Source of the DNA: Candidatus Shapirobacteria bacterium
GTDB taxonomy: Bacteria > Patescibacteriota > Microgenomatia > UBA12405
DNA: 64,000 bases
Assembly: GCA_041660365.1 (NCBI GenBank)
Contig: JBAZWK010000001.1
Span: 1,524-65,523, forward strand
Direction of reading: 5' to 3'
The notes beneath the pieces are model-generated. The model searched no databases, was not told where the DNA came from, and saw only the letters and a program-made list of their open reading frames with translations. This document shows positions 43,035-59,756 of the stretch, one piece after another; within the stretch, counting starts at the first letter, position 1; each line of letters starts with the position of its first letter. Position numbers and translations under genes: made by a program.

Positions 43035-43721
43035 TTACCAATTAGAAAACATGGCAGCTGGGGTTTTGAAAATAATGGCAATTTCTTGACGAAGCGAGCG
43101 ATTTTTAATATAGACAGCATCCATCTTGGCTCTTTTTTCAAAAGGGAGGTTGTTACGTCCTGAAACTTGCCAGAGACCGGTGATGCCGGGTTTGGCGGTT
43201 CGAATAATATCAATGTATTTTTTTGTTTTAGGGTATTTTTGAGCATATTCATTTAACTCTTCATCGCGATAGGCTCGAGGGCCAACTAAACTCATTTCCC
43301 CTTTTAAAACATTGATAAACTGGGGCATTTCATCAATAGAGGTGGCACGAATAAATTTACCAATTTTGGTAATGCGGGGATCCTCAGAGGCGGAGAGCTT
43401 CCAGTCATTAGCTTTATATTTTTCCCAAAGTTCTGGATAGTTTTCTCTTAAAAATTTATCATTGTCACCACAACGCATAGAGCGAAATTTATACATGAAG
43501 AACTCACGATCTTGACCAACCCTTTTTTGTTTAAAAATAATTGGACCGAAAGAAGTTATTTTGATAAGGAGGGAAACAATTAAAAGAATTGGTGAGAAGG
43601 CAATTAACAAAAGAGCGGAGGCAAAAATATCAATAGTTCTTTTAACGGGAGCAAATAAAAAAACTCTTAGGTTGTAAAAAGGTAAATCTCTTCTAGTCAT
43701 TTTTTGAACATAGAGTGTCAA
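43035..43721 (-). CDS. Initiating polyprenyl-phosphate sugar-phosphate transferase (Bac_transf / PglC-WbaP C-terminal type)
   Basis: 'KRTIDIFASALLLIAFSPILLIVSLLIK...GPIIFKQKRVG...FFMYKFRSM...PGITGLWQVSGR' is the full sugar-transferase motif set. Confidence 0.75.
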   Translation of the reverse strand: MTLYVQKMTRRDLPFYNLRVFLFAPVKRTIDIFASALLLIAFSPILLIVSLLIKITSFGPIIFKQKRVGQDREFFMYKFRSMRCGDNDKFLRENYPELWEKYKANDWKLSASEDPRITKIGKFIRATSIDEMPQFINVLKGEMSLVGPRAYRDEELNEYAQKYPKTKKYIDIIRTAKPGITGLWQVSGRNNLPFEKRAKMDAVYIKNRSLRQEIAIIFKTPAAMFSNW

Positions 43722-44736
43722 CTTGTTGCTTAAAGTTTAACATAAAGTTTTTATGGTCAAAGCGGGAAGCTTGTAACTGACAACCACGGCTGTTTGGGGT
43801 ATGTTTAAGATATTCATTTAAAGCCTTAAATAAGGAATTTTCATTTAATTCAGAAAAGAAAATGCCAGTTTTATGGTCGATAATTGTTTCTAATGCTCCG
43901 CCTTTTTGATAGGCTACCACTCCTCGACCACAAGCTTGAACTTCAAGGGCACTAAGACCAAAATCTTCTTCTTGAGGATGAATTAAACCGAGGCAGTTTT
44001 GATAAAGAGAAACTAATTGATGATCATCAATATTTCCTAAAAATTCGATATTTTTATTATTTTTGGCTAAAGATTTTAAATAGTTTTGGTCTCGACCGAC
44101 GCCAACAATCTTAAGGAAATAAGGAAAATCGCGAAAAGTTTTAATAACTAAGTCAATATTTTTATGAGCGACTAAACGGGAGACAATTAAAAAATAATTT
44201 TTTGGTTTTTGCTGGTTAGGGAAGAACTTTTTAGTATCAATTCCAGGGTAGATGACAGTGGTGGGACGTTGATAATTAGCCTGAATACGTTTGGCAACAT
44301 TTTGTGAATTACAAAAAATATAATCGGGACGAGAGGCATAAATTTTATCTATTTTTTGATATTTTTTTAAAAGTGGCCTAAGTATAAGTGGCGGATTTTG
44401 ATAGAGGTAACGATTAATATTGTGGTAATAGCAAATAAATAAAGTTTGGGGAAGGGTAAGAAAACAGTGACCGATGGTGGAGGTAGTGGAGATTAAAAGA
44501 TCATATGAAGAAAAATCAACTTGCTCCATTTTATAGGCATAAAATGGAGTGTATAGAAGTTTATTTTTTAAATTTAGGGAAATAATTTTGTGGCCTTTTG
44601 GCAACCAAGAGGTTTTTTGAGGGTCATAAATGAGAGTATAAATATCGGCTTGAGGATAGATTTCTAAAAGATCGAGAAGAACTCTTTCGGCACCACCCCA
44701 TTGATTGAGCCAATCATAAAAGATTGCAATTTTCAA
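43693..44736 (-). CDS. Glycosyltransferase family 4 (GT-B). Apparent TTG start sits inside a heptamer repeat
   Basis: 'MKIAIFYDWLNQWGGAERV' and 'EDFGLSALEVQACGRGVVAY' are the GT4 EX7E-type motifs. Confidence 0.7.
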   Translation of the reverse strand: MKIAIFYDWLNQWGGAERVLLDLLEIYPQADIYTLIYDPQKTSWLPKGHKIISLNLKNKLLYTPFYAYKMEQVDFSSYDLLISTTSTIGHCFLTLPQTLFICYYHNINRYLYQNPPLILRPLLKKYQKIDKIYASRPDYIFCNSQNVAKRIQANYQRPTTVIYPGIDTKKFFPNQQKPKNYFLIVSRLVAHKNIDLVIKTFRDFPYFLKIVGVGRDQNYLKSLAKNNKNIEFLGNIDDHQLVSLYQNCLGLIHPQEEDFGLSALEVQACGRGVVAYQKGGALETIIDHKTGIFFSELNENSLFKALNEYLKHTPNSRGCQLQASRFDHKNFMLNFKQQVDTLCSKND

Positions 44737-44762
44737 TTACGAATTACGAATTACGAATTAAG
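44735..44762. repeat. Tandem heptanucleotide repeat (AATTACG)x3 plus one imperfect unit. Spans the 14-bp gap between two GT4 genes and includes the downstream TTG start and the upstream stop
   Basis: Reads aattacg aattacg aattacg aattaag directly. Confidence 0.6.
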
Positions 44763-45869
44763 TAATTCTTGATAAAAATTTAATGTTTGAATAGCGGTTT
44801 TAGACCAAGAATATTTGGTGACTTGTTGATGACCTAACTTTAATAATTTATTTCTGAGTGTTGGAGATTTTTGTAATAATTTAATTTGCTTGATTAAGTC
44901 GTCCGGGTTGTGGGGATTAAAATAGAGAACTGAGTTTTCATAAATTTCCGGAAGACAGCTGGAATTAGCAGCAATAACTGGACAGTTTAGAGCCATAGCT
45001 TCTAAGCCGGTTAAGCTGAAACCTTCTAGAAATGAGGGGTGAACTAAAGCCAAAGCTCGTTGATAAATTTGTTGGAATTTATTGTCTGGCAAATAACCTA
45101 AAAATTCAACTTGTTTTTCCAAGTGATTTAACCTAACTAATTTAACAATTCTTTGAGTAAAAACAGAACGGGCGCAAATAATTTTTAGTTTTAACTTAGG
45201 CAATTTTTTTAAGGCTTCAAAAACAACTTCAATATTTTTATGGGGGTAAAGGTTGCCGGTGTAAATAAGATAGTCAGAGATTCTAGGTTCTGGATTCGAG
45301 AGACGAGAAGATTTTTGGAGAAATTCAGGATCAACGGCTTCGTAAGTAGTAATAATTTTTTGAGAATTAAAATGGTATTTTTCTATGATGTAGTCACGCC
45401 AAAAATTACTGGGGACAATGATAAAACTAGTGTTAAAAATAAAACGGGTCATTAATAAATAACCCCAGTATTTAGGCCAATAAAAAAGAGAATTTCTGGT
45501 CGAGGTAGCTGGTCCTTTGGAAAAATGGCGGATTAAATCATGAACAGTGACGACTGATTTACCACCATAAAAGATGGGTTTATCTAGATGGGTAAAGTGA
45601 ACTAAATCGGGTTTTAAACTTCTTAAAAGAAAGGGTAAGAGTAATTGTTCCTGAATGGAATAATGTCTAAACTTTGTGGTTACGTAGGTAAAATTATTTC
45701 CTAAATCATTTTTTACTTCTGGCAATAATTCTGAATAAACTAAAAGAGTAAAATGATATTTTTTAAAATCAGACTGATCTTTTAGGGCGATTAAAAGATT
45801 TTTGGTATAACGGCCAAGACCGGTGTGTTTGGGACCATAAAGACGAGCATCAATAACAATATGCATCAT
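44751..45869 (-). CDS. Glycosyltransferase family 4
   Basis: 'EGFSLTGLEAMALNCPVIAANSSCLPEI'. GT-B fold. Confidence 0.7.
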   Translation of the reverse strand: MMHIVIDARLYGPKHTGLGRYTKNLLIALKDQSDFKKYHFTLLVYSELLPEVKNDLGNNFTYVTTKFRHYSIQEQLLLPFLLRSLKPDLVHFTHLDKPIFYGGKSVVTVHDLIRHFSKGPATSTRNSLFYWPKYWGYLLMTRFIFNTSFIIVPSNFWRDYIIEKYHFNSQKIITTYEAVDPEFLQKSSRLSNPEPRISDYLIYTGNLYPHKNIEVVFEALKKLPKLKLKIICARSVFTQRIVKLVRLNHLEKQVEFLGYLPDNKFQQIYQRALALVHPSFLEGFSLTGLEAMALNCPVIAANSSCLPEIYENSVLYFNPHNPDDLIKQIKLLQKSPTLRNKLLKLGHQQVTKYSWSKTAIQTLNFYQELLNS

Positions 45870-52534: not shown

Positions 52535-53664
52535 ATTTTTTTATAAATATTTAAAGTTTGTTTGGCGGTGATATCCCAAGAAAATTTGGTCGATTGCAGA
52601 AGAGATTTTTGGGAAAGTTTTTTTCTAAGAGTGCTCGAACTAATCAATTTTTGTAAACCTTGAAAAATCGATTCAATGGAATTGGGATTAATTAAAATAC
52701 CAGAGTTGCCAACAACTTCGGGCAGTGAGGAAGTACAGCTAGTTAAAACAGGAACACCAAGTTTTAGAGATTTAACTAAGGGCAGGCCAAAACCTTCGTA
52801 GAGGGAGGGGTAAGCTAAAAATAAAGCTGAGGCGTGAAGAGCCACCATATCTTTTTCGGGAATGTAACCCAGGATCTTAATCCGAGAATTTTTGAACTGG
52901 AGAATATCTTTACCCCAACCATATTTACCGGTGATAGCTAATTCTACCTTAGATTCGGGATGTTTTTGATGGTATAAATTAAAGGCAGCAATTAAACGAG
53001 TTAAATTTTTGCGCGGTTCCCGGGTGCCTTGGGAAAGAATAAATTTTTTAAGGCCGTACTGTTTTTCGATGGCAGATTTTTTGCGATTTTGAATTTCTGG
53101 GGACAGTTTCAAAAAATCACTGTATTTATCTTCGGCGGCTTCATAAATAACGCTAGTTTTTTGAGAATTTATTTTAGGGAAAATTCTTAAAAGATCTTTT
53201 TGAGAATTTTGCGAGACACAAATAAAATTTTGACATTCTTTGGCTGCCCAAAACATTTTTCGTTGATGAGTAGTGACAATTTTAGGAGATAACCATTGGG
53301 GAAAAAGAAAGGGCGTTAAGTCGTGGACAGTAGTGATAGTTTTGGCTTTTAATGTCGGCGGCTGGGTCCAATCAGAAGTATGAAAAACATCGCATCGGCC
53401 AATAAAAAATTCTATCGGTAAAATATGAAGTTGATTCCATAGAATGGCTAAAAAAGTGGGAGGTAAGCGATAATGGTAGATTTTGACATTTTTATATTTG
53501 GCTAATTCAGAAATTTCTTTTGGCAGTGGTTGGCGAAGAAGAGAAAAAAAGAGTTTATATGTGTTTTGGCGATCATTTTTTAGAAGATGCCGGACTAGGT
53601 TTAGGGTGTAATTACTGACACCGGTGCCATAAGCAATAGAAGAGACATCGATTCCGATTATCAT
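52528..53664 (-). CDS. Glycosyltransferase family 4
   Basis: 'EGFGLPLVKSLKLGVPVLTSCTSSLPEVVG'. Confidence 0.7.
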   Translation of the reverse strand: MIIGIDVSSIAYGTGVSNYTLNLVRHLLKNDRQNTYKLFFSLLRQPLPKEISELAKYKNVKIYHYRLPPTFLAILWNQLHILPIEFFIGRCDVFHTSDWTQPPTLKAKTITTVHDLTPFLFPQWLSPKIVTTHQRKMFWAAKECQNFICVSQNSQKDLLRIFPKINSQKTSVIYEAAEDKYSDFLKLSPEIQNRKKSAIEKQYGLKKFILSQGTREPRKNLTRLIAAFNLYHQKHPESKVELAITGKYGWGKDILQFKNSRIKILGYIPEKDMVALHASALFLAYPSLYEGFGLPLVKSLKLGVPVLTSCTSSLPEVVGNSGILINPNSIESIFQGLQKLISSSTLRKKLSQKSLLQSTKFSWDITAKQTLNIYKKIC

Positions 53665-54512
53665 ATCTGTATGGTTGATTTTAGCAAATATGATAAATTT
53701 CGGAGGCGTTCGACGAAAATTTGAGGAAAATTTTTAATAAATTCGGAAAAAGTATAATTTTTGTGAATAAAATAAATCCAATTTTTAAAAACTTGTTTAG
53801 CCCGAAAGTTGCCCATGCGATTGCTGGTGCCGCCACCTAGATGGTAAGCCAAGGCTTGAGGAATCAACAAAGTCTGATAGTGATTTTTTTGGAGCCGAAA
53901 GGCAAGGTCGACATCTTCGACATAGGCGAAATAATGTTCGTCGAAAAGGCCTATTTTAAGGATAATTTCTTTATTATAAATGACGACGGCGCCACTGGAA
54001 CCCCAGACTGATTTAGAGGAATAGTTAGTTAGATGAGTAGATAAGTAGTTAATAGTTGAAAAGTGGTTTTGAAGGCACTTACCTGACCAATCAAAACTGA
54101 TGCCTTGGGATTCAATGGCAGTGCCGTCACGGTTTAAAACCGTGCCACAAAAACAGGCAAACTTAGGGTATTTTTTAATGTTTTGAACAATTAATTTAAA
54201 ATAATTTTGATCGAGATTCAAGTCGTTGTTTAATAGACAGACGTAATTGTATTTGGCAGCCTTAATGCCCCGATTAACGGCAAAAGCAAAACCAGTATTG
54301 CGATTTAGTTGAATAGTGGAATAGTCGAATAGTTTAATAGATGAAGAGTTGAATAGTTGAATAGAATTATCAGTGGAGCCGTTGTCGACCAGAATTATTT
54401 CGAATTTGGCGTTGAGGCAATTTTTAATGGCAAGGTTAAGATTTTTTAGACAGTCGGGTAGATATTTAGCACCATTAAAATTAGGAATAATGATACTAAA
54501 ATTAATTTCCAT
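53661..54512 (-). CDS. Glycosyltransferase family 2. Carries an in-frame 8-bp periodic insert
   Basis: 'FSIIIPNFNGAKYL...IILVDNGSTDNS' then 'IQLFNSSSIKLFDYSTIQLN', encoded by the 54309-54364 repeat array, then 'RNTGFAFAVNRG'. Confidence 0.7.
   Translation of the reverse strand: MEINFSIIIPNFNGAKYLPDCLKNLNLAIKNCLNAKFEIILVDNGSTDNSIQLFNSSSIKLFDYSTIQLNRNTGFAFAVNRGIKAAKYNYVCLLNNDLNLDQNYFKLIVQNIKKYPKFACFCGTVLNRDGTAIESQGISFDWSGKCLQNHFSTINYLSTHLTNYSSKSVWGSSGAVVIYNKEIILKIGLFDEHYFAYVEDVDLAFRLQKNHYQTLLIPQALAYHLGGGTSNRMGNFRAKQVFKNWIYFIHKNYTFSEFIKNFPQIFVERLRNLSYLLKSTIQI
54309..54364. repeat. 8-bp periodic array, seven units (TTGAATAG-like), in-frame inside the GT2 gene
   Basis: Reads ttgaatag tggaatag tcgaatag tttaatag atgaagag ttgaatag ttgaatag. 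Confidence 0.7.
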
Positions 54513-54966
54513 AATTTATTTTAATAGAATCCCCTATTTTTAATTTTATTTTTTGGGCAGTACCGGCATTTAATTCGATGACGTATTTAACGGCTTGGGA
54601 ACTTTGGTAGAGTTTGAGTTGAAGGTCGGGAACATTGGGTTCGGGTTTTGCGGTGAAGATATCGGTAACTTGACCGCTTTGAGTGACAAAAATCATGTCT
54701 AAAGAAATCAAGGTATCTTTCATCCAAAAATAGCGAATAGTTTCACCATTAAAAACAAAAAGCATCCCGCAGTTAGAACAAAGTTCTGATCGATTAGAGA
54801 GTCCTTTGGCCTGAAGATAGGAATTATTTGCAATCTCAAGAATATAACTTTGATCTTTAATATTTTGATTTATTGTCTTGGGTGGTGATGATTTATTGAT
54901 AAATAGTTTAGTAGATAAGTAGATTAGTAGTAAGACAACTAGAACTATAATGATAATTTTTTGCAT
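54502..54966 (-). CDS. DUF192 (COG1430) domain protein with an N-terminal TM anchor
   Basis: 'LQAKGLSNRSEL...GMLFVF...FWMKDTLISLDMIFV...YVIELNAG' is the DUF192 pattern. Confidence 0.6.
   Translation of the reverse strand: MQKIIIIVLVVLLLIYLSTKLFINKSSPPKTINQNIKDQSYILEIANNSYLQAKGLSNRSELCSNCGMLFVFNGETIRYFWMKDTLISLDMIFVTQSGQVTDIFTAKPEPNVPDLQLKLYQSSQAVKYVIELNAGTAQKIKLKIGDSIKINYGN
54898..54937. repeat. 8-bp periodic array (GATAAGTA-like, five units) inside the N-terminal codons of the DUF192 gene
   Basis: Reads gataaata gtttagta gataagta gattagta gtaagaca. Confidence 0.55.
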
Positions 54967-56147
54967 AAGCTTTCCCCTATTCTATCCCAAGTGTAAAAAC
55001 TTTTAATATTTTGATAACCGGTATGGGCCAGATTTTTCGAAAGTTGCGGTGATTTAATTAATTTAATAATAGTTCTAGTTAAGTTGTTTAGATTATCTAT
55101 TTTGAAAGTTAAACCGCCCTTTAAGGTATTAATAACTTCGAATGTTTGGGGAGTATTGGCACCGATTATCGCTTTGCCTCGGGCTAGGCTTTCGACAAAA
55201 ACCAAGCCAAAACTTTCATGAACTGAGGGCAGAATTAAAAAAGAACTTTGATCTATGGCATCCTTAATTTGTTTTGGAGTGGGTTTAAAAATAAATTTAA
55301 TTTTTGACCGAGTCTGTGGAGGAATAGTTTTTAAAAAAGTCGAAATTTTGGGAAAATAAAGGGTTTTTTGACCGAGAAGGGTTAAAGACGAGTGAGGGTA
55401 TTTTTTTAAAATTAAATCAAAAGCTTGGATTAAAAGTTCGCTTCTTTTATGAGCGGAAAAATTAGCAATAAAAACTAGGTGAGTTTCTTTTGGATAATGA
55501 ATTCTTTTTTCATCAATAATAAAATCTGGGTCAACCCCGAGACCGTGGACAAAATATTGGGGTTGAGTGATTTTTAAATTTTTTTGAAAATATTTTTTTT
55601 CATAGTCGGTGAGACACCAAAGGTAGTCGGCTTTTTTTAATACGGAAAGTAAAATGGGACTTTGAAAATCCGGATCATTAGGGTGAAAACAAGGAACGAG
55701 GAGTAATTTAGTTGAATAGTGGAATAGTTTAGTAGTTAAGAAGTGAAGAAAAGAAGCATAAAGAATAATGGTGGTGGGAAGCGGGCCAGCGATTATATAA
55801 TCGGGATGAAATTGGACAATAGATTTTAGAGATGAGAAAAAAGAAATTGGGGAAAAGATGGGACCTTTACTAAAAGTTTTGAAGTTGGGAAGTAATTTAG
55901 ATAATAGTTTAAAGGGACGATGGAGGAAAGTAAAAACTGGTAATCGAATAATGTTTGAGCCGTCTTTGCCATAATTTAATTGGCTATGACGAGCCGAGGA
56001 GAAGTCGTCGGTGGAAGTACAGTTAGTAGTTAAAACTAAAATTTGATGGCCCTGTTTTTCTAGGTATTCCCCTATTTTATTGATGGCTCTGGAGCCGCCG
56101 TCAACGGCGGGAGGGTAAATATGAGTCAGTAGTAAAAATTTGGCCAT
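54945..56147 (-). CDS. Glycosyltransferase family 4. Carries an in-frame 8-bp periodic segment
   Basis: 'MAKFLLLTHIYPPAVDGGSRA' and 'ESFGLVFVESLARGKAIIGANTPQ'. The peptide 'LHFLTTKLFHYSTKLLL' is encoded by the 55701-55748 array. Confidence 0.7.
   Translation of the reverse strand: MAKFLLLTHIYPPAVDGGSRAINKIGEYLEKQGHQILVLTTNCTSTDDFSSARHSQLNYGKDGSNIIRLPVFTFLHRPFKLLSKLLPNFKTFSKGPIFSPISFFSSLKSIVQFHPDYIIAGPLPTTIILYASFLHFLTTKLFHYSTKLLLVPCFHPNDPDFQSPILLSVLKKADYLWCLTDYEKKYFQKNLKITQPQYFVHGLGVDPDFIIDEKRIHYPKETHLVFIANFSAHKRSELLIQAFDLILKKYPHSSLTLLGQKTLYFPKISTFLKTIPPQTRSKIKFIFKPTPKQIKDAIDQSSFLILPSVHESFGLVFVESLARGKAIIGANTPQTFEVINTLKGGLTFKIDNLNNLTRTIIKLIKSPQLSKNLAHTGYQNIKSFYTWDRIGESLCKKLSL
55701..55748. repeat. 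8-bp periodic array (xTAGTxxA units) inside the GT4 gene
   Basis: Reads gagtaatt tagttgaa tagtggaa tagtttag tagttaag aagtgaag. Confidence 0.5.
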
Positions 56148-56173
56148 TTGATATAGTATATTTCATAAGAGCT

Positions 56174-57109
56174 ATGAAAACGGTAATGAATAAGTTAAAA
56201 AAAGTTTTGAATTCCAAATTGTTCCAATTGTCCTTTTCGGCGATATTAATTTTTGTGGCTTTTCGAAGGGTTAATGTTGGCCATTTACTAAATGAGGTGC
56301 ATCAAGCCCCCTGGTGGGTGGTGATAGTTTTGTTGGTATATATGGCTTTTTCCATGGTTTTGGGTGGTTTACGCTGGAGTATTTTAGTTTTAGGTAAGGT
56401 TAAGCTTAGTGATGTTTTGGCCTTCACCAAAGCTACTTATGCCGGCAGCTTTTATTCACTATTTTTTCCATCTTCTGTTGGCGGAGATTTATTAAAATGG
56501 ACAAGTTTAACTAAAAAATATCCGGAAATGTCAAAGCTAAAGTTAATGGGTTCGGCCTTAATTGATCGGGTAATTGGTTTTAGCGCTTTTTCAATCGCGG
56601 CTTTAATAGCTTTAATTGCCGGGAAAATATTGAAGTATCAATTTCCTGAGATTTTATTTTGGTTATTTTTAGGGATTAATTTTGCTTTAATTGTTTTTTA
56701 TGTTTTGGTTTTTACAATTGATTTTGAAAAAATGTTGAGTAAATTTAAATTTTTAAATAAGTTATTGGAAATTGTGGATTTACTAAAGAATAGTAATAAA
56801 CAAAGAATTATTATTTGTTTTTTAATCTCTTTAATATCTGAACCGGTATGGATGTTAATGACCTGGTTTTCGTCCTTGACCTTCAAAGCTCACATAAAAC
56901 TACTGCAAGTATTTATTTTTATGCCGATAATATCCTTAATTTTAGTATTACCCATTTCATGGGCGGGTTTTGGGGCCAGAGAAAATTTATTTTTAATATT
57001 TTTTGGGCAGTTAGGATATCAATCAGAAAAATTGCTGTTAGTATCGGCTTTTGGTGGAATATTAGGAATATTAAATGCTTTGATTGGCGGACTGGTGCTG
57101 TTGTTCTAA
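56174..57109 (+). CDS. Flippase-like (UPF0104 / lysyl-PG-synthase-TM-like) polytopic membrane protein
   Basis: About eight TM helices. The N-terminal 'KLFQLSFSAILIFVAFRRVNVGHL...LGGLRWSIL' pattern matches the UPF0104 family, which is often linked to GT2 genes. Confidence 0.5.
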   Translation: MKTVMNKLKKVLNSKLFQLSFSAILIFVAFRRVNVGHLLNEVHQAPWWVVIVLLVYMAFSMVLGGLRWSILVLGKVKLSDVLAFTKATYAGSFYSLFFPSSVGGDLLKWTSLTKKYPEMSKLKLMGSALIDRVIGFSAFSIAALIALIAGKILKYQFPEILFWLFLGINFALIVFYVLVFTIDFEKMLSKFKFLNKLLEIVDLLKNSNKQRIIICFLISLISEPVWMLMTWFSSLTFKAHIKLLQVFIFMPIISLILVLPISWAGFGARENLFLIFFGQLGYQSEKLLLVSAFGGILGILNALIGGLVLLF

Positions 57110-57149
57110 ATAGATAAGTAGTTGAATAGATAAGTAGTTGAGAAGTAAA
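57110..57149. repeat. 8-bp periodic array (ATAGATAAGTAGTTGA x2 plus tail), intergenic, immediately after the stop of the flippase-like gene
   Basis: Reads atagataa gtagttga atagataa gtagttga gaagtaaa. Confidence 0.65.
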
Positions 57150-57157
57150 ATACTATT

Positions 57158-57256
57158 AACTGTCAAGAAGGTCTGGTGTATAGCCAGACTGGCAACCGAG
57201 CCCGCCGAAGAGGTGGATCACGGTGCCCGTCCAAAAACAATTTGGAAGACAGGCCT
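57158..57256 (+). ncRNA. SAM-I (S-box) riboswitch in the metK leader
   Basis: P1 is CUGUC (57160-64) paired with GACAG (57248-52). J1/2 is 'AAGAAGG', against the consensus AAGAGAGG. The P2 hairpin is GUCUGG-uguauag-CCAGAC. The P3 strands are 'GGCAACC' (57191-97) and 'GGUGCCC...UCC' (57222-). The P4 hairpin is CCAAA-aacaa-UUUGG. 'GGAAGA' precedes the P1 3' strand. It ends 22 nt before the metK ATG. Confidence 0.7.
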
Positions 57257-57277
57257 TATTAATTAAAAAGGAAAAAT

Positions 57278-58375
57278 ATGAACTATTTCCAGTTTTCTTC
57301 CGAGTCGGTATCGTCGGGTCATCCCGATAAAATCTGTGATCAAATTTCTGATGCAGTGCTAGATGAAGCTTTGAGTTTAGATAAAAATTCCAGAGTAGCG
57401 GTAGAAACTCTACTGACTGTTAATAGAATTGTTTTAGCTGGCGAAGTCACTTGTACTAATAAAATTGATTTTGAAAAAGTAGCCAGAAATAAAATTAAGG
57501 AAATTGGTTACGATAAAGAGATTTATAACTTTACTGATAAGTCCCCGATTGAAATATATGTTCACCAACAGTCGGCTGACATTGCAATCGGGGTTGATAA
57601 TGAGGGTGCTGGCGATCAGGGAATGATGTTTGGTTATGCCAGTGATGAGACCAAGGAATTGATGCCGTTGCCGATAGTTTTGGCTCATAGATTATGCCGA
57701 AAGATGGATGAATTAGAGAAAAAAGAAAATTGGATTAGACCCGATGGAAAATCACAGGTGACAGTAAATTATGATAATGGAAAAGTAATTGGAATTGAAA
57801 AAGTAGTCTTGGCAAAACCGTTGGATTATAAAAAAAAGATTGATTTTAAACAATATTTTTATGAGTCGGTAATTTTACCAGTGTTGAGTGAATACAATTT
57901 AAATATTGGAATAGATCAGGTTATTTTTAATGGAACAGGACGTTGGGAAATTGGCGGTCCGGCAACTGATACGGGGGTGACTGGTCGGAAAATTGTAGTC
58001 GATACTTATGGTGGGATGGGAAGAATTGGCGGTGGTTGTTTTTCCGGAAAGGATCCAACAAAAGTTGATCGAAGTGCGGCTTACGCCGCCAGGTTTTTAG
58101 CTAAAAATGTGGTGGCAGCAGGATTGGCGAAACGCTGCGAAGTGCAATTAGCTTATGCAATTGGTGTTAGAGACCCAGTTGGTAAAGGTTTTGAGACTTT
58201 TGGAACTGCTACTAAAGATGAAAAAATTATTAATGATTTTATTTGGAATTTAATGGATTTGTCGGTCAAAGGTATTATAGAAAAATTTGATCTTAAGAGA
58301 CCAATATTTGCCCAAACAGCCAAATATGGACATTTTGGAAATGAAAATTATTCTTGGGAGAGTATAGATAAGTAG
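57278..58375 (+). CDS. metK: S-adenosylmethionine synthetase
   Basis: 'FSSESVSSGHPDKICDQISDAVLD', 'GAGDQGMMFGYA' and 'DTYGG' are canonical MetK motifs. Confidence 0.9.
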   Translation: MNYFQFSSESVSSGHPDKICDQISDAVLDEALSLDKNSRVAVETLLTVNRIVLAGEVTCTNKIDFEKVARNKIKEIGYDKEIYNFTDKSPIEIYVHQQSADIAIGVDNEGAGDQGMMFGYASDETKELMPLPIVLAHRLCRKMDELEKKENWIRPDGKSQVTVNYDNGKVIGIEKVVLAKPLDYKKKIDFKQYFYESVILPVLSEYNLNIGIDQVIFNGTGRWEIGGPATDTGVTGRKIVVDTYGGMGRIGGGCFSGKDPTKVDRSAAYAARFLAKNVVAAGLAKRCEVQLAYAIGVRDPVGKGFETFGTATKDEKIINDFIWNLMDLSVKGIIEKFDLKRPIFAQTAKYGHFGNENYSWESIDK

Positions 58376-58403
58376 TTGAATAGTTGAATAGATAAGTAGT
58401 AAG
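58364..58403. repeat. 8-bp periodic array overlapping the metK stop codon
   Basis: Reads atagataa gtagttga atagttga atagataa gtagtaag. It has the same unit family as the array at 57110. Confidence 0.65.
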
Positions 58404-58494
58404 ATGAGTGTATGTTATATCACAATATTTTAGTTTGGAAAAAGTCACATGAATTTACTTTAGAAATCTATAAAATAACTAAAAAATATCCCAA

Positions 58495-58743
58495 ATGAGA
58501 AGAGCTTCTAGTTCAGTTCCGGCCAATATTGTGGAAGGAAATGCTAGAAGATCAAGTAAGGAATTTGCTCAATTTTTAGTTCAAGCCAGGGGTTCTTTAT
58601 CAGAAACACAATATTTTTTAGAATTATCAAAAGATTTAGAATACATTTCAGTATCTGAATTTGAAAATCTTACTACACTGTCTATTGAAGTAGCTAAGAT
58701 GTTAAACTCTTTATTAACTAAGATTAAGAGTTGTAATTATTAG
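58495..58743 (+). CDS. Four-helix-bundle protein (the family encoded in 23S rRNA intervening sequences), N-terminally disrupted. The first ~28 codons lie in another frame at 58412..58498, so this is a likely pseudogene or truncated product
   Basis: 'RRASSSVPANIVEGNARRSSKEFAQFLVQARGSLSETQYFLELS' matches the family core (RRAAxSIxANIAEGxxRxSxKEFxxFLxIAxGSxxE). The upstream frame encodes 'MLYHNILVWKKSHEFTLEIYKITKKYPK*', which matches the family N-terminus. About 7 codons are missing and there is a frameshift. Confidence 0.6.
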   Translation: MRRASSSVPANIVEGNARRSSKEFAQFLVQARGSLSETQYFLELSKDLEYISVSEFENLTTLSIEVAKMLNSLLTKIKSCNY

Positions 58744-58746
58744 ATT

Positions 58747-58787
58747 TTAACTATTAATCTATTTATCTATTAAACTATTCATCTAAC
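58747..58787. repeat. 8-bp periodic array in inverted orientation (reverse complement ATAGTTTA ATAGATAA ATAGATTA ATAGTTAA), between the four-helix-bundle gene and galE
   Basis: With the array at 58364-58403 it forms imperfect inverted repeats flanking the four-helix-bundle gene. Confidence 0.6.
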
Positions 58788-59756
58788 ATGATATTAATAG
58801 TCGGAGGGGCCGGATATATCGGCTCAGAAATAAACAAAGAATTAAATGTAAACGGTTACAAAACCGTAATTTTAGACAGTTTGGTTTCGGGGCATAAAGA
58901 GTCGGTAAAATGGGGAGAATTTGTTCAGGGTGATTTAGTTAATTTAGAAGATATTCGGGGAGTGTTTAAAAAATATCCAATTGAGGCGGTGTTTAATTTT
59001 GCGGCTTTTATCGAAGTTGGTGAATCAGTGAAAGATCCGCAAAAATATTATTTTAATAATTTAATAAACACTCTTAATTTATTAAAAGTAATGAGAGAGT
59101 TTAACGTTAATAAAATTATTTTTTCCTCAACGGCAGCGACTTTTGGCGAACCAAAATACACGCCAATTGATGAAAAACATCCGCAATGGCCAATTAATCC
59201 CTATGGTTGGACTAAATTTATGATAGAGCGGGTGTTTTCAGATTACGATACTGCATATGGTCTACGATATGTGGCTTTGCGTTATTTCAATGCTTGTGGG
59301 GCCAATGATGAGGCGGATATTGGCGAAAATCATAACCCAGAATCTCACTTAATTCCTTTGGTTTTGGATGCGGCCATTGGGAAAAGGGAAAATATAAAAA
59401 TTTTTGGCACTGACTACCCTACCCCGGACGGCACTTGTGTTCGGGATTATGTTCACGTGGTTGATTTGGCCTCAGCTCATCTTTTAGCTTTAAAACATCT
59501 GTTGGATGGTGGAGAATCAAAACAATACAACTTAGGTAATGGTAAAGGTTTTTCAGTCCGCGAGGTAATTGAGGCGGTTAAAAAAGTAACTGGGAAAGAG
59601 TTTACAGTAATTGAAGATGTCAGACGTCCTGGCGATCCACCGGTTTTGGTGGCCACTTCAGAAAAAATTAAAAAAGAATTGGGCTGGGATCCAAAATATA
59701 CTGATATTGAGGCAATTGTAGCGACCGCTTGGAAATGGCACCAAAAAAAGGCATAA
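58788..59756 (+). CDS. galE: UDP-glucose 4-epimerase
   Basis: 'MILIVGGAGYIGSEI' is the Rossmann GxxGxxG. 'YGWTKFMIE' is the YxxxK motif. SDR extended family, 322 aa. Confidence 0.85.
   Translation: MILIVGGAGYIGSEINKELNVNGYKTVILDSLVSGHKESVKWGEFVQGDLVNLEDIRGVFKKYPIEAVFNFAAFIEVGESVKDPQKYYFNNLINTLNLLKVMREFNVNKIIFSSTAATFGEPKYTPIDEKHPQWPINPYGWTKFMIERVFSDYDTAYGLRYVALRYFNACGANDEADIGENHNPESHLIPLVLDAAIGKRENIKIFGTDYPTPDGTCVRDYVHVVDLASAHLLALKHLLDGGESKQYNLGNGKGFSVREVIEAVKKVTGKEFTVIEDVRRPGDPPVLVATSEKIKKELGWDPKYTDIEAIVATAWKWHQKKA

What the first reader, a model, noticed from the sequence alone, without database searches (positions are those of the whole stretch)
54309..58787. Six arrays of an 8-bp periodic motif (NTAGNTNA / TTGAATAG) within 4.5 kb, three of them in-frame inside glycosyltransferase or DUF192 coding sequence and three at gene boundaries
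The arrays run 5-7 units each over 40-56 bp. They occur at 54309-54364 (inside the GT2 gene, encoding the 8-aa-periodic peptide IQLFNSSS/IKLFDYST/IQLNRNTG), 54898-54937 (DUF192 N-terminus), 55701-55748 (GT4 gene), 57110-57149 (after the flippase-like gene), 58364-58403 (overlapping the metK stop) and 58747-58787 (inverted, before galE). Eight is not a multiple of three, yet the reading frames survive. This recalls palindromic elements that insert in-frame into genes (Rickettsia RPE-like behaviour) or short-unit slippage repeats that could drive phase or antigenic variation of surface-glycan enzymes. The intergenic copies sit exactly at cassette borders (riboswitch-metK, and the four-helix-bundle gene).
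Basis: seen in the sequence. Interest (0 to 1): 0.7.

Follow-up and report, generated by a model that had tools for sequence, protein, structure and literature searches.

The report
Stop-rich 8-bp repeat arrays, IVS-like cassette
A candidate-phylum bacterium carries seven stable arrays of one 8-bp repeat in a sugar-coat gene cluster: two form the inverted arms of a decayed "intervening-sequence" gene cassette, and five are solo copies tolerated at gene ends or as small in-frame insertions, so they are not on/off switches.

Summary
There are seven arrays, not six, of unit TAG-W-N-D-A-R within 54014-58787: 11 pattern matches against 0.01 expected by chance, and none elsewhere in the 64 kb.

The TAG strand has stops in all three frames and almost no C. 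Its complement is open in the frame used. This explains the placement:
- In minus-strand genes (GT2 twice, DUF192, GT4), arrays are read through as 15-24 nt in-frame insertions, relative to orthologues that lack arrays.
- In plus-strand genes (flippase-like gene, metK), they sit on or just after the stop codon.

Arrays 58364-58404 and 58747-58787 are inverted arms around a frameshifted four-helix-bundle (PF05635, 23S rRNA IVS protein) gene. This unit replaces a ~50-bp metK-galE spacer found in relatives, and the arms fold into a long stem.

In 68 unrelated metagenomic PF05635 loci, 72% have inverted 7-8-nt tandem arrays on their flanks; none of 41 control pairs do.

Phase variation is not supported: units are imperfect, three assemblies are identical, and arrays sit at orthologous positions in related species, conserved at least as well as neighbouring codons.

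Verdict: a new octamer variant of known stop-rich short tandem repeats (TAACTGA type) combined with an IVS-like cassette. How the arrays spread, and any function, are inferred.

The parts
54014..54061 (+). Units: TAGAGGAA TAGTTAGT TAGATGAG TAGATAAG TAGTTAAT. It lies inside the minus-strand GT2 gene and is read as residues 151-167 (HFSTINYLSTHLTNYSS).
   Evidence: It lies in an indel-rich loop of the family, +21 nt relative to L209/L210/L003. The AF2 model has low pLDDT (63) here and almost no regular structure.
54306..54369 (+). Array A2, 7-8 units (TAGTTGAA TAGTGGAA TAGTCGAA TAGTTTAA TAGATGAA GAGTTGAA TAGTTGAA). It lies inside GT2 and is read as residues 50-69 (NSIQLFNSSSIKLFDYSTIQ).
   Evidence: TRF score 83, period 8, 7.4 copies. 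It is +24 nt relative to L209/L210. AF2 models it as a helix plus a strand of the GT-A fold, pLDDT 86-93. It is degenerate in L001/L003 and replaced by another short repeat in L006.
54896..54937 (+). Array A3, inside the DUF192 gene. It encodes part of the N-terminal hydrophobic anchor (VVLLLIYLSTKLFI).
   Evidence: It is present at the same position in L001, L006 and L211 and absent (-15 nt) in L209, L210 and L003. The block is 100/92/83% identical in DNA against 77/67/65% for the rest of the gene, and is the top-ranked window in the gene.
55701..55748 (+). Array A4 (core 55709-55748), inside the third GT4 gene. It encodes LHFLTTKLFHYSTKLL.
   Evidence: It is orthologous in L001, L006 and L211, and -18 nt in L209/L210. 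Against L211 the block is 83% identical versus 57% for the rest of the gene, rank 3 of 312 windows.
57110..57150 (+). Array A5, starting immediately after the TAA stop of the LPG_synthase_TM (flippase-like) gene and ending just before the metK leader. It contains a perfect 16-bp unit repeated 2.1 times.
   Evidence: The same array is found at the same junction in L211 (where it overlaps the stop) and as a remnant in L209. It is absent in L210 and in L001/L003/L006.
57155..57287 (+). Candidate SAM-I/IV riboswitch in the metK leader (context, not part of the repeat family).
   Evidence: RF01725, 37.8 bits (gathering score 41.1), E = 5.6e-5, full model length matched. There was no hit at the gathering threshold.
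57278..58375 (+). metK. Its last three sense codons (I-D-K) and its stop codon lie in array A6; relatives end at ...WE(K/R)I*, so the array adds two codons (D-K) and supplies the stop.
58364..58404 (+). Array A6, the left arm of the IVS-like cassette. It supplies the metK stop codon.
   Evidence: It pairs with A7 in the minimum-free-energy fold of 58355-58795. The A6:A7 duplex is -30.5 kcal/mol, z = -5.0.
58405..58743 (+). Decayed four-helix-bundle gene (PF05635 / TIGR02436, '23S rRNA intervening sequence protein'). Only the C-terminal 82 codons remain as an ORF (58495-58743). The N-terminal part is recognisable only in other reading frames.
   Evidence: Pfam 86.8 bits, profile positions 35-106 of 106; TIGR02436 86.7 bits. 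The frameshifts were read directly from the sequence.
58747..58787 (-). Array A7, the right arm of the cassette, inverted (TAG on the minus strand). It ends one base before the galE ATG.
53661..56147 (-). Host genes carrying the coding arrays: GT2 (53661-54512), DUF192 (54502-54966) and GT4 (54945-56147).

Best explanation
SHOWN. The seven arrays are copies of one lineage-specific octanucleotide tandem repeat (TAG-W-N-D-A-R).
- One strand is nearly C-free and carries stops in all three frames. The other strand is open in the frames used.
- Two arrays in inverted orientation (58364-58404 and 58747-58787) are the arms of a ~410-bp cassette. It holds a now-frameshifted PF05635 four-helix-bundle gene and occupies the metK-galE junction, where relatives have only a ~50-bp hairpin spacer.
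- The arms pair into a ~38-bp interrupted stem, as the terminal repeats of 23S rRNA intervening sequences do.
- Inverted 7- or 8-nt tandem arrays are the usual flanks of PF05635 genes across phyla.
- The other five arrays are solo copies in the same absolute orientation. On plus-strand genes they sit on or just after the stop codon. In minus-strand genes they are translated as 5-8-residue in-frame insertions in family-variable segments.
- The arrays are old, of fixed length, and conserved at least as well as the surrounding codons.

INFERRED.
- Solo arrays arose by local copy-paste (template switching, short-patch conversion or slippage) from arrays of this family. Only copies in the tolerated orientation and phase survived.
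- The cassette arms act in RNA as a double-stranded processing site of the RNase III type. This would uncouple the inserted gene from the metK-galE transcript, while the three-frame stops end the upstream ORF cleanly.
- The retained TAG periodicity suggests a sequence-level role: pairing, or recognition by the four-helix-bundle protein.
For: - Non-random and localised.
- Strand asymmetry of stops and of C content.
- Filled versus empty site: L210 and L211 have metK-TAA-(hairpin)-ATG-galE, where the window has A6-gene-A7.
- Stem: MFE -96.8 kcal/mol, z = -3.5, with A6 paired to A7; duplex -30.5 kcal/mol, z = -5.0.
- General architecture: of 68 metagenomic PF05635 loci with enough flank, 72% have an inverted flank match of score 12 or more, against 0 of 41 control pairs taken 500 bp further out. 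Tandem arrays occur in 43% against 0%. 26 of 49 loci are sandwiched between co-directional genes, with spacers of about 62 nt.
- The same architecture appears in Mesorhizobium sp. ISC25, a Patescibacteria MAG, a Pleurocapsa MAG, Picosynechococcus PCC 7003 (between cmr2 and cmr3) and Geminocystis.
- Coding arrays are in-frame insertions relative to array-less orthologues and fall in family-variable regions.
- Stability: identical in three assemblies, at orthologous positions in L001, L006 and L211, and well conserved as blocks.
- CTA and T7 columns are 89-90% identical between orthologous arrays, against 76% for the other unit columns.
- The class behaves the same way elsewhere. Of 106 TAG-octamer arrays in GTDB genomes, 31 hold the stop of an upstream co-directional ORF, 16 lie inside a reverse-strand ORF and none lie inside a forward ORF.
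- Published analogue: TAACTGA repeats (PMC4679880). IVS stems cut by RNase III: PMC4990558.
Against: - Only 4 of the 120 GTDB loci recovered with TAG-octamer arrays have an adjacent PF05635 gene, so most such arrays are not cassette arms.
- Relatives L001, L006 and L211 have the solo arrays but no PF05635 gene within the 10-20 kb seen, so derivation of the solos from a cassette is not shown.
- Three-frame stops are not a general property of PF05635 flanks.
- No recombinase or other copying agent is nearby.
- The clustering of all solos within about 2.2 kb of one divergent promoter region is unexplained.
- RNase III processing and protein binding are untested.
- The conservation statistics rest on two arrays and four related genomes that are not independent.
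Confidence: 0.5

Rival explanations
1. Ordinary long simple-sequence repeats. The arrays arise and persist by replication slippage and mutational bias alone. They have no function and no real link to the four-helix-bundle cassette, and their placement reflects only purifying selection against stops.
For: - 5-11-nt SSRs are over-represented in many prokaryotes (literature cited in PMC4679880 and PMC4692102).
- TAG-octamer arrays are widespread and mostly lack a PF05635 neighbour.
- Placement rules follow from stop content.
Against: - Independent slippage would give different units in different genes. Here one unit family occurs seven times in 4.8 kb and nowhere else in 64 kb.
- Arrays inside variable protein segments are conserved as well as or better than the flanking codons.
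- The TAG and A7 positions are better kept than the interior unit positions.
- 72% of PF05635 loci against 0% of controls have inverted array flanks.
Confidence: 0.2
2. Cis-regulatory RNA or DNA sites. The periodic UAG units would be bound by an oligomeric regulator, in the manner of TRAP or HutP or as proposed for TAACTGA repeats. This would control translation, termination or stability of the two divergent glycan operons.
For: - TAG periodicity is conserved while the spacers drift.
- Arrays abut stop and start codons without a Shine-Dalgarno sequence.
- All arrays cluster around one divergent promoter region, in relatives as well.
- Plus-strand-RNA arrays are complementary to the arrays in the minus-strand mRNA.
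Against: - Four arrays lie in coding sequence, antisense to the UAG strand.
- The spacing (5 nt) differs from that of TRAP (2-3 nt) and HutP (4 nt).
- No candidate regulator is in the window.
- The arrays are absent from close relatives with the same genes (L209, L210), so any such regulation is dispensable.
Confidence: 0.15
3. RPE-like mobile element. A discrete selfish element transposes into genes in frame.
For: In-frame insertions of 15-24 nt occur in unrelated genes, in permissive segments.
Against: - There is no palindrome within any single array and no conserved element ends or length.
- Arrays differ in unit number and order.
- The net insertions are shorter than the arrays.
- There are no target duplications.
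Confidence: 0.06
4. Contingency loci. Changes in unit number switch the glycosyltransferases on and off (phase variation).
For: A unit length that is not a multiple of three, in surface-glycan genes, resembles known phase-variable loci.
Against: - Units are imperfect (TRF 73-91% matches for the coding arrays).
- Two other assemblies from other samples are identical over A1-A3.
- Arrays have been stable at orthologous positions across species.
- All the genes are intact.
Confidence: 0.04

Closest known systems
TAACTGA heptamer direct repeats of Beggiatoaceae, Cyanobacteria and Bacteroidetes (MacGregor 2015, PMC4679880)
   Same: - Short head-to-tail repeats whose 'forward' strand has stops in all three frames.
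- Forward copies overlap upstream stop codons or sit next to start codons.
- 'Reverse' copies lie inside ORFs, in variable or terminal protein regions.
- Function unknown.
   Different: - The unit here is 8 nt with a different sequence (TAGWNDAR), and the units are degenerate.
- The host is a CPR bacterium.
- The arrays are confined to one 4.8-kb locus rather than spread through the genome (within the 64 kb seen).
- Two arrays form the inverted arms of a PF05635 cassette, a link that paper does not describe.
23S rRNA intervening sequences carrying the S23p/PF05635 ORF (Leptospira, Coxiella; Warrier 2016, PMC4990558)
   Same: - An element of ~410-430 nt holding a PF05635 ORF, bordered by complementary termini that form a long stem.
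- The ORF is often not needed or is decayed.
- Sporadic distribution suggests a selfish or mobile origin.
   Different: - It lies between two protein-coding genes (metK and galE), not in a 23S rRNA helix.
- The termini are built from tandem 8-nt units.
- RNase III excision has not been tested here.
G-rich heptamer arrays of Xanthomonas (GGGAATC) and Nostoc (GGGGAYT) (Rehm 2015, PMC4692102), and cyanobacterial STRR repeats
   Same: - Intergenic 7-nt tandem arrays close to ORF ends.
- About 70 convergent (inverted) pairs per Xanthomonas genome.
- Positions stable between species rather than hypervariable.
   Different: - Those units are G-rich and were discussed as G-quadruplex formers; they do not carry stop codons.
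- Coding insertions were not emphasised.
- No link to PF05635 genes was reported, although PDB 2GSC is a PF05635 protein from X. campestris.
Rickettsia palindromic elements (RPE)
   Same: Repeated DNA tolerated as in-frame insertions in permissive parts of unrelated proteins.
   Different: RPEs are 100-150-bp palindromic units of defined sequence. The arrays here are direct 8-bp repeats with net insertions of only 15-24 nt.

Membership tests
IVS-type element (23S rRNA intervening sequence with S23p ORF) | Internal ORF of family PF05635 / TIGR02436 | tested here: met
   Pfam 86.8 bits and TIGR02436 86.7 bits for 58495-58743. The gene is truncated and frameshifted.
IVS-type element (23S rRNA intervening sequence with S23p ORF) | Complementary termini forming a stem that encloses the ORF | tested here: met
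   A6 pairs with A7 in the MFE and centroid folds, z = -3.5. Duplex -30.5 kcal/mol, z = -5.0.
IVS-type element (23S rRNA intervening sequence with S23p ORF) | Inserted in helix 9, 25 or 45 of a 23S rRNA gene | tested here: not met
   It lies between metK and galE, and there is no rRNA in the window. It is therefore IVS-like in build, not a member in the strict sense.
IVS-type element (23S rRNA intervening sequence with S23p ORF) | Excised from the transcript by RNase III | not testable with these tools
   Needs RNA data or an in vitro cleavage assay.
Stop-rich short tandem direct repeats (TAACTGA type) | Head-to-tail repeats of a 7-nt TAACTGA unit | tested here: not met
   The unit is 8 nt, TAGWNDAR. 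Same kind of repeat, different family.
Stop-rich short tandem direct repeats (TAACTGA type) | Forward strand has stops in all three frames; forward copies are confined to ORF ends; reverse copies are tolerated inside ORFs | tested here: met
Phase-variable contingency locus (SSR) | A tract of identical units long enough for frequent slippage | tested here: not met
   The coding arrays show 73-91% matches between units. The longest perfect run is 2.4 units.
Phase-variable contingency locus (SSR) | Unit-number polymorphism between close strains or within populations | tested here: not met
   L127 and L128, from other samples, are identical to the window over 53192-55087 except for one terminal base. 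This rests on consensus assemblies only, and covers only A1-A3.
Rickettsia palindromic element-like insertion | A palindromic element of defined length and sequence | tested here: not met
   The arrays are direct repeats of variable unit number.
Rickettsia palindromic element-like insertion | In-frame insertion into unrelated genes relative to orthologues | tested here: met
   +15 to +24 nt relative to L209/L210/L003.
TRAP / HutP-type (U/G)AG-repeat RNA-binding site | Triplets spaced by 2-3 nt (TRAP) or 4 nt (HutP), with a cognate ring protein encoded in the genome | tested here: not met
   The spacing here is 5 nt. The spacings of the known systems are from my own knowledge. No such protein is in the window; the rest of the genome was not available.
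CRISPR array | Repeats of 25-40 nt separated by unique spacers | tested here: not met
   The units abut one another with no spacers.

The most novel reading that the evidence does not exclude
PF05635 four-helix-bundle proteins crystallise with five chains per entry and share a Pfam family with the Avd protein of diversity-generating retroelements. In this reading, these proteins and the 7-8-nt tandem arrays that bracket their genes form one widespread selfish or RNA-processing cassette system. The protein would recognise the repeat. The cassette would insert between genes of operons and into rRNA, where it is seen as an 'IVS'. Its arms would seed the solo heptamer and octamer arrays (LSSR, STRR, TAACTGA, and the arrays in this window) whose origin has been unexplained since the 1990s.
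Probability: 0.2. Interest if true: 0.8.

Novelty: new variant of a known kind. Interest (0 to 1): 0.55.

Why it matters
For this window, the result removes a tempting but wrong reading: that these are phase-variable glycosyltransferases.

It also gives a simple rule for where such repeats can live, based on the stop content of each strand.

More broadly, it ties together three separate literatures:
- 23S rRNA intervening sequences and their enigmatic S23p ORF;
- over-represented heptamer and octamer tandem repeats;
- stop-rich TAACTGA-type repeats.

The link is a testable architecture: a PF05635 gene bracketed by inverted tandem arrays and inserted between co-directional genes. It is seen here in a CPR bacterium, in other MAGs (Pleurocapsa, a proteobacterium), in the cultured strains Mesorhizobium sp. 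ISC25 and Picosynechococcus PCC 7003, and in most of 68 unrelated metagenomic loci.

If the protein recognises its flanking repeat, that would assign a function to a very common 'hypothetical' family. It would also explain a long-noted repeat class.

The better-than-background conservation of array DNA inside variable protein segments is a concrete anomaly worth following up.

Tried and rejected
- Exact-sequence look-up of the window's metK, and of its representative P0121, found nothing on record. A5-A7 could therefore not be compared between assemblies.
- A five-sequence PF05635 alignment was too diverse for the search for related loci. A three-sequence alignment worked.
- I first read 57110-58787 as a single window-specific insertion, because L001, L003 and L006 join the flippase-like gene directly to galE. 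I rejected this after L209, L210 and L211 showed metK at the same place. Only the A6-gene-A7 unit is an insertion.
- 'Three-frame stop insulator' as a general property of PF05635 flanks was rejected. Many flank units carry no stops and show no polarity.
- Strict tandem scoring (-3 per mismatch) undercounts degenerate arrays. The inverted-match test was more informative.
- Rfam at the gathering threshold gave only a tRNA, so no known RNA family covers the arrays.
- Literature searches for a described link between PF05635/S23p genes and heptamer or octamer arrays found none in the held library. That library lacks most subscription journals, so absence there is weak evidence.
- CRISPR, RPE, TRAP/HutP and assembly artefact were considered and rejected (see the membership tests). 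Three assemblies and several species agree on the sequence.

Full report
**Observation.** The window is AT-rich (34.6% G+C). It matches a contig annotated as Candidatus Shapirobacteria, a member of the candidate phyla radiation.
- The pattern TAG(N5)TAG(N5)TAG(N5)TAG has 11 matches, all within 54014-58785, against 0.01 expected from shuffles. A looser pattern with two mismatches gives 20 against 0.11.
- Runs of at least 3 phased TAG number 7 plus 1 at period 8, and only 0-1 at any other period from 4 to 13.
- The unit is T1 A2 G3 W4 N5 D6 A7 R8. On the TAG strand there is a single C in 312 nt, against a 14% background.
- Six arrays have TAG on the plus strand. The last one (58747-58787) is inverted.

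**Why the frames survive.** The TAG strand has stop codons in all three frames in every array. The complement has none, or only stops outside the frame in use.
- GT2, DUF192 and the third GT4 gene are on the minus strand, so they read the open complement.
- The flippase-like LPG_synthase_TM gene and metK are on the plus strand. There the arrays begin immediately after the stop (57110) or supply the stop themselves (58373-58375).
- The same rules hold for 106 TAG-octamer arrays recovered from GTDB genomes of many phyla. Of these, 31 hold the stop of an upstream co-directional ORF, 26 are followed within 60 nt by a start, 16 lie inside a reverse-strand ORF, and none lies inside a forward ORF.
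- That scan required TAG. It therefore shows that such arrays are widespread, not that TAG is favoured among octamer repeats.

**Comparison with relatives.** The glycan cluster is syntenic in several related genomes: L001, L003, L006 and L209-L212.
- Codon alignments show that each coding array coincides with an in-frame insertion relative to array-less orthologues (L209, L210, L003). The insertions are +18 nt in GT4, +15 nt in DUF192, and +24 and +21 nt in GT2.
- The affected segments are the indel-prone parts of the families.
- An AlphaFold model of GT2 (mean pLDDT 91.6) places the second array-coded segment in a low-confidence surface loop. The first is modelled as a helix plus strand at the edge of the GT-A fold.
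- The DUF192 and GT4 arrays are present at orthologous positions in L001, L006 and L211. L211 has four arrays in GT4.
- The arrays are not fast-evolving. The DUF192 block is 100, 92 and 83% identical in DNA to L006, L001 and L211, against 77, 67 and 65% for the rest of the gene. The GT4 block is 83% identical to L211 against 57% for the rest.
- Within orthologous arrays, the CTA and T7 columns are 89-90% identical in pairwise comparisons. The other unit columns are 76% identical.
- These comparisons use few arrays and related genomes, so they are suggestive only.
- Two independent assemblies from other samples are identical to the window across three arrays.
- Taken together, this argues against contingency loci.

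**The cassette.** The ORF at 58495-58743 is the C-terminal two-thirds of a PF05635/TIGR02436 four-helix-bundle protein ('23S rRNA intervening sequence protein'). The N-terminal part is recognisable only in other frames, so the gene is decayed.
- It is bracketed by array A6 (58364-58404) and the inverted array A7 (58747-58787).
- In L210 and L211, metK is followed by a ~50-bp hairpin spacer and then galE. In the window that spacer is replaced by A6-gene-A7, about 410 bp. metK gains two codons and a new stop from A6, and A7 ends one base before the galE ATG.
- As RNA, 58355-58795 folds with A6 paired to A7 (MFE -96.8 kcal/mol, z = -3.5). The duplex alone is -30.5 kcal/mol, z = -5.0.
- This is the build of the 23S rRNA intervening sequences of Leptospira and Coxiella: an element of about 430 nt with this ORF and terminal inverted repeats cut by RNase III (PMC4990558). 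The difference is that it sits between protein-coding genes.

**A correction to my first reading.** L001, L003 and L006 join the flippase-like gene directly to galE, so I first took metK to be part of the insertion. L209, L210 and L211 have metK at the same place, so metK there is shared among relatives.
- Array A5, after the flippase-like gene, is also shared. L211 has it overlapping the stop, and L209 has a remnant.
- In L211, a HigA/HigB-like pair sits between two direct arrays at this junction. The arrays therefore mark a junction that has accepted different small cassettes.

**Generality of the cassette architecture.** Starting from arrays, an HMM built from the window's protein found PF05635 genes directly next to arrays in four loci: Mesorhizobium sp. 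ISC25, a Patescibacteria MAG, a proteobacterial MAG and a Pleurocapsa MAG. In three of these the upstream array has an inverted partner downstream that ends just before the next gene's ATG; in Pleurocapsa the downstream 8-mer is not the reverse complement of the upstream unit.
- Starting instead from the protein, a metagenome scan returned 80 loci.
- Their flanks show tandem arrays of period 7 (mostly) or 8, with the downstream array the reverse complement of the upstream one.
- Of 68 loci with enough flank, 72% reach an inverted-match score of 12, against none of 41 control pairs taken 500 bp further out. Strict tandem arrays occur in 43% against 0%.
- 26 of 49 loci lie between co-directional genes, with spacers of about 62 nt.
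- Complete plasmids of cultured cyanobacteria show the same thing, including a copy between cmr2 and cmr3 of a type III-B CRISPR operon.
- The repeat unit is lineage-specific, and stop codons are not a general feature of these flanks.
- I found no paper in the held library that describes this association.

**What is known.** The closest described analogue to the solo arrays is the TAACTGA heptamer repeat of Beggiatoaceae, cyanobacteria and Bacteroidetes. Its forward copies carry stops in all frames and sit at ORF ends. Its reverse copies lie inside ORFs in variable regions. Its function is unknown (PMC4679880). Heptamer arrays in Xanthomonas and Nostoc are likewise intergenic, often in convergent pairs, and positionally stable (PMC4692102).

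**Interpretation.**
- Shown:
  - one repeat family with seven copies;
  - placement rules set by strand-specific stops;
  - in-frame insertions in permissive segments;
  - age and stability of the arrays;
  - an IVS-like cassette with array arms at a filled site whose empty form exists in relatives;
  - a cross-phylum association of PF05635 genes with inverted tandem-array flanks.
- Inferred:
  - the solos are copies spread locally from arrays of this family by template switching, conversion or slippage;
  - the arms act as a double-stranded RNA processing site;
  - the periodic TAG is kept for pairing or protein recognition.
- Unexplained:
  - why all solos lie within about 2.2 kb of one divergent promoter region, here and in relatives;
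  - why the TAG strand is C-free;
  - what copies the arrays.

**Verdict.** This is a real and non-random feature. It is a new octamer variant of a known kind of repeat, joined to an IVS-like cassette. The broader PF05635-array link is the part most worth following up.

Noticed in passing
window 44735-44760: A perfect heptamer array (TAATTCG x 3.7 as read on the minus strand, with TAA in all three frames). It contains the stop of ORF 44751-45869(-) and overlaps the TTG start of ORF 43693-44736(-) by 2 nt. This is a second, unrelated stop-rich tandem array at an intra-operon junction.
   Followed up: partly
window 57155-57287: SAM-I/IV riboswitch-like leader upstream of metK, full model length matched. 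It scores 37.8 bits, below Rfam's gathering score of 41.1. The same leader motif (TTAACTGTCAAGA...GGCAACC...CACGGTGCC) is conserved in L209-L211.
   Followed up: partly
window 1-64000: GC skew on the plus strand is positive (+0.1 to +0.35) over nearly the whole window, whichever strand the genes are on. Most genes between 15 and 56 kb lie on the minus strand, which is the C-rich strand.
   Followed up: no
L211 4111-4861 (and L212): A HigA/HigB-like pair (HTH_3 + Gp49) is inserted between the flippase-like gene and the metK riboswitch. It is bracketed by two direct arrays of the window's repeat unit. L209 has only the HTH_3 gene and one array remnant.
   Followed up: partly
L006 10160-10200; GT2 homologues P0010, P0100, P0102: The same variable segments of the GT2 family carry other short repeats in other genomes: GTCATTT x 3 in L006, and a KIEDCRL peptide repeat at the N-terminus and in segment 2 of P0010. 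These loops seem to accept short tandem DNA repeatedly.
   Followed up: no
L214 (Picosynechococcus sp. PCC 7003 plasmid, NZ_CP016476.1 126543-126899): A four-helix-bundle gene with inverted array flanks sits between cas10/cmr2 and cmr3 of a type III-B CRISPR operon. This may explain why a published large-scale screen lists '23S rRNA IVP' among CRISPR-linked proteins (PMC10910872, figure legend).
   Followed up: partly
PDB 2gsc (XCC0516, Xanthomonas campestris) and 2rld: The two solved PF05635 structures each have five chains per entry. One is from the species in which about 70 convergent pairs of GGGAATC heptamer arrays were reported. Whether those pairs bracket PF05635 genes could not be checked here.
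   Followed up: no
L034 1397-1488, L043 7147-7295, L072 1445-1499: Inverted pairs of TAG-octamer arrays with little or nothing between them. These may be gene-less derivatives of the cassette.
   Followed up: no
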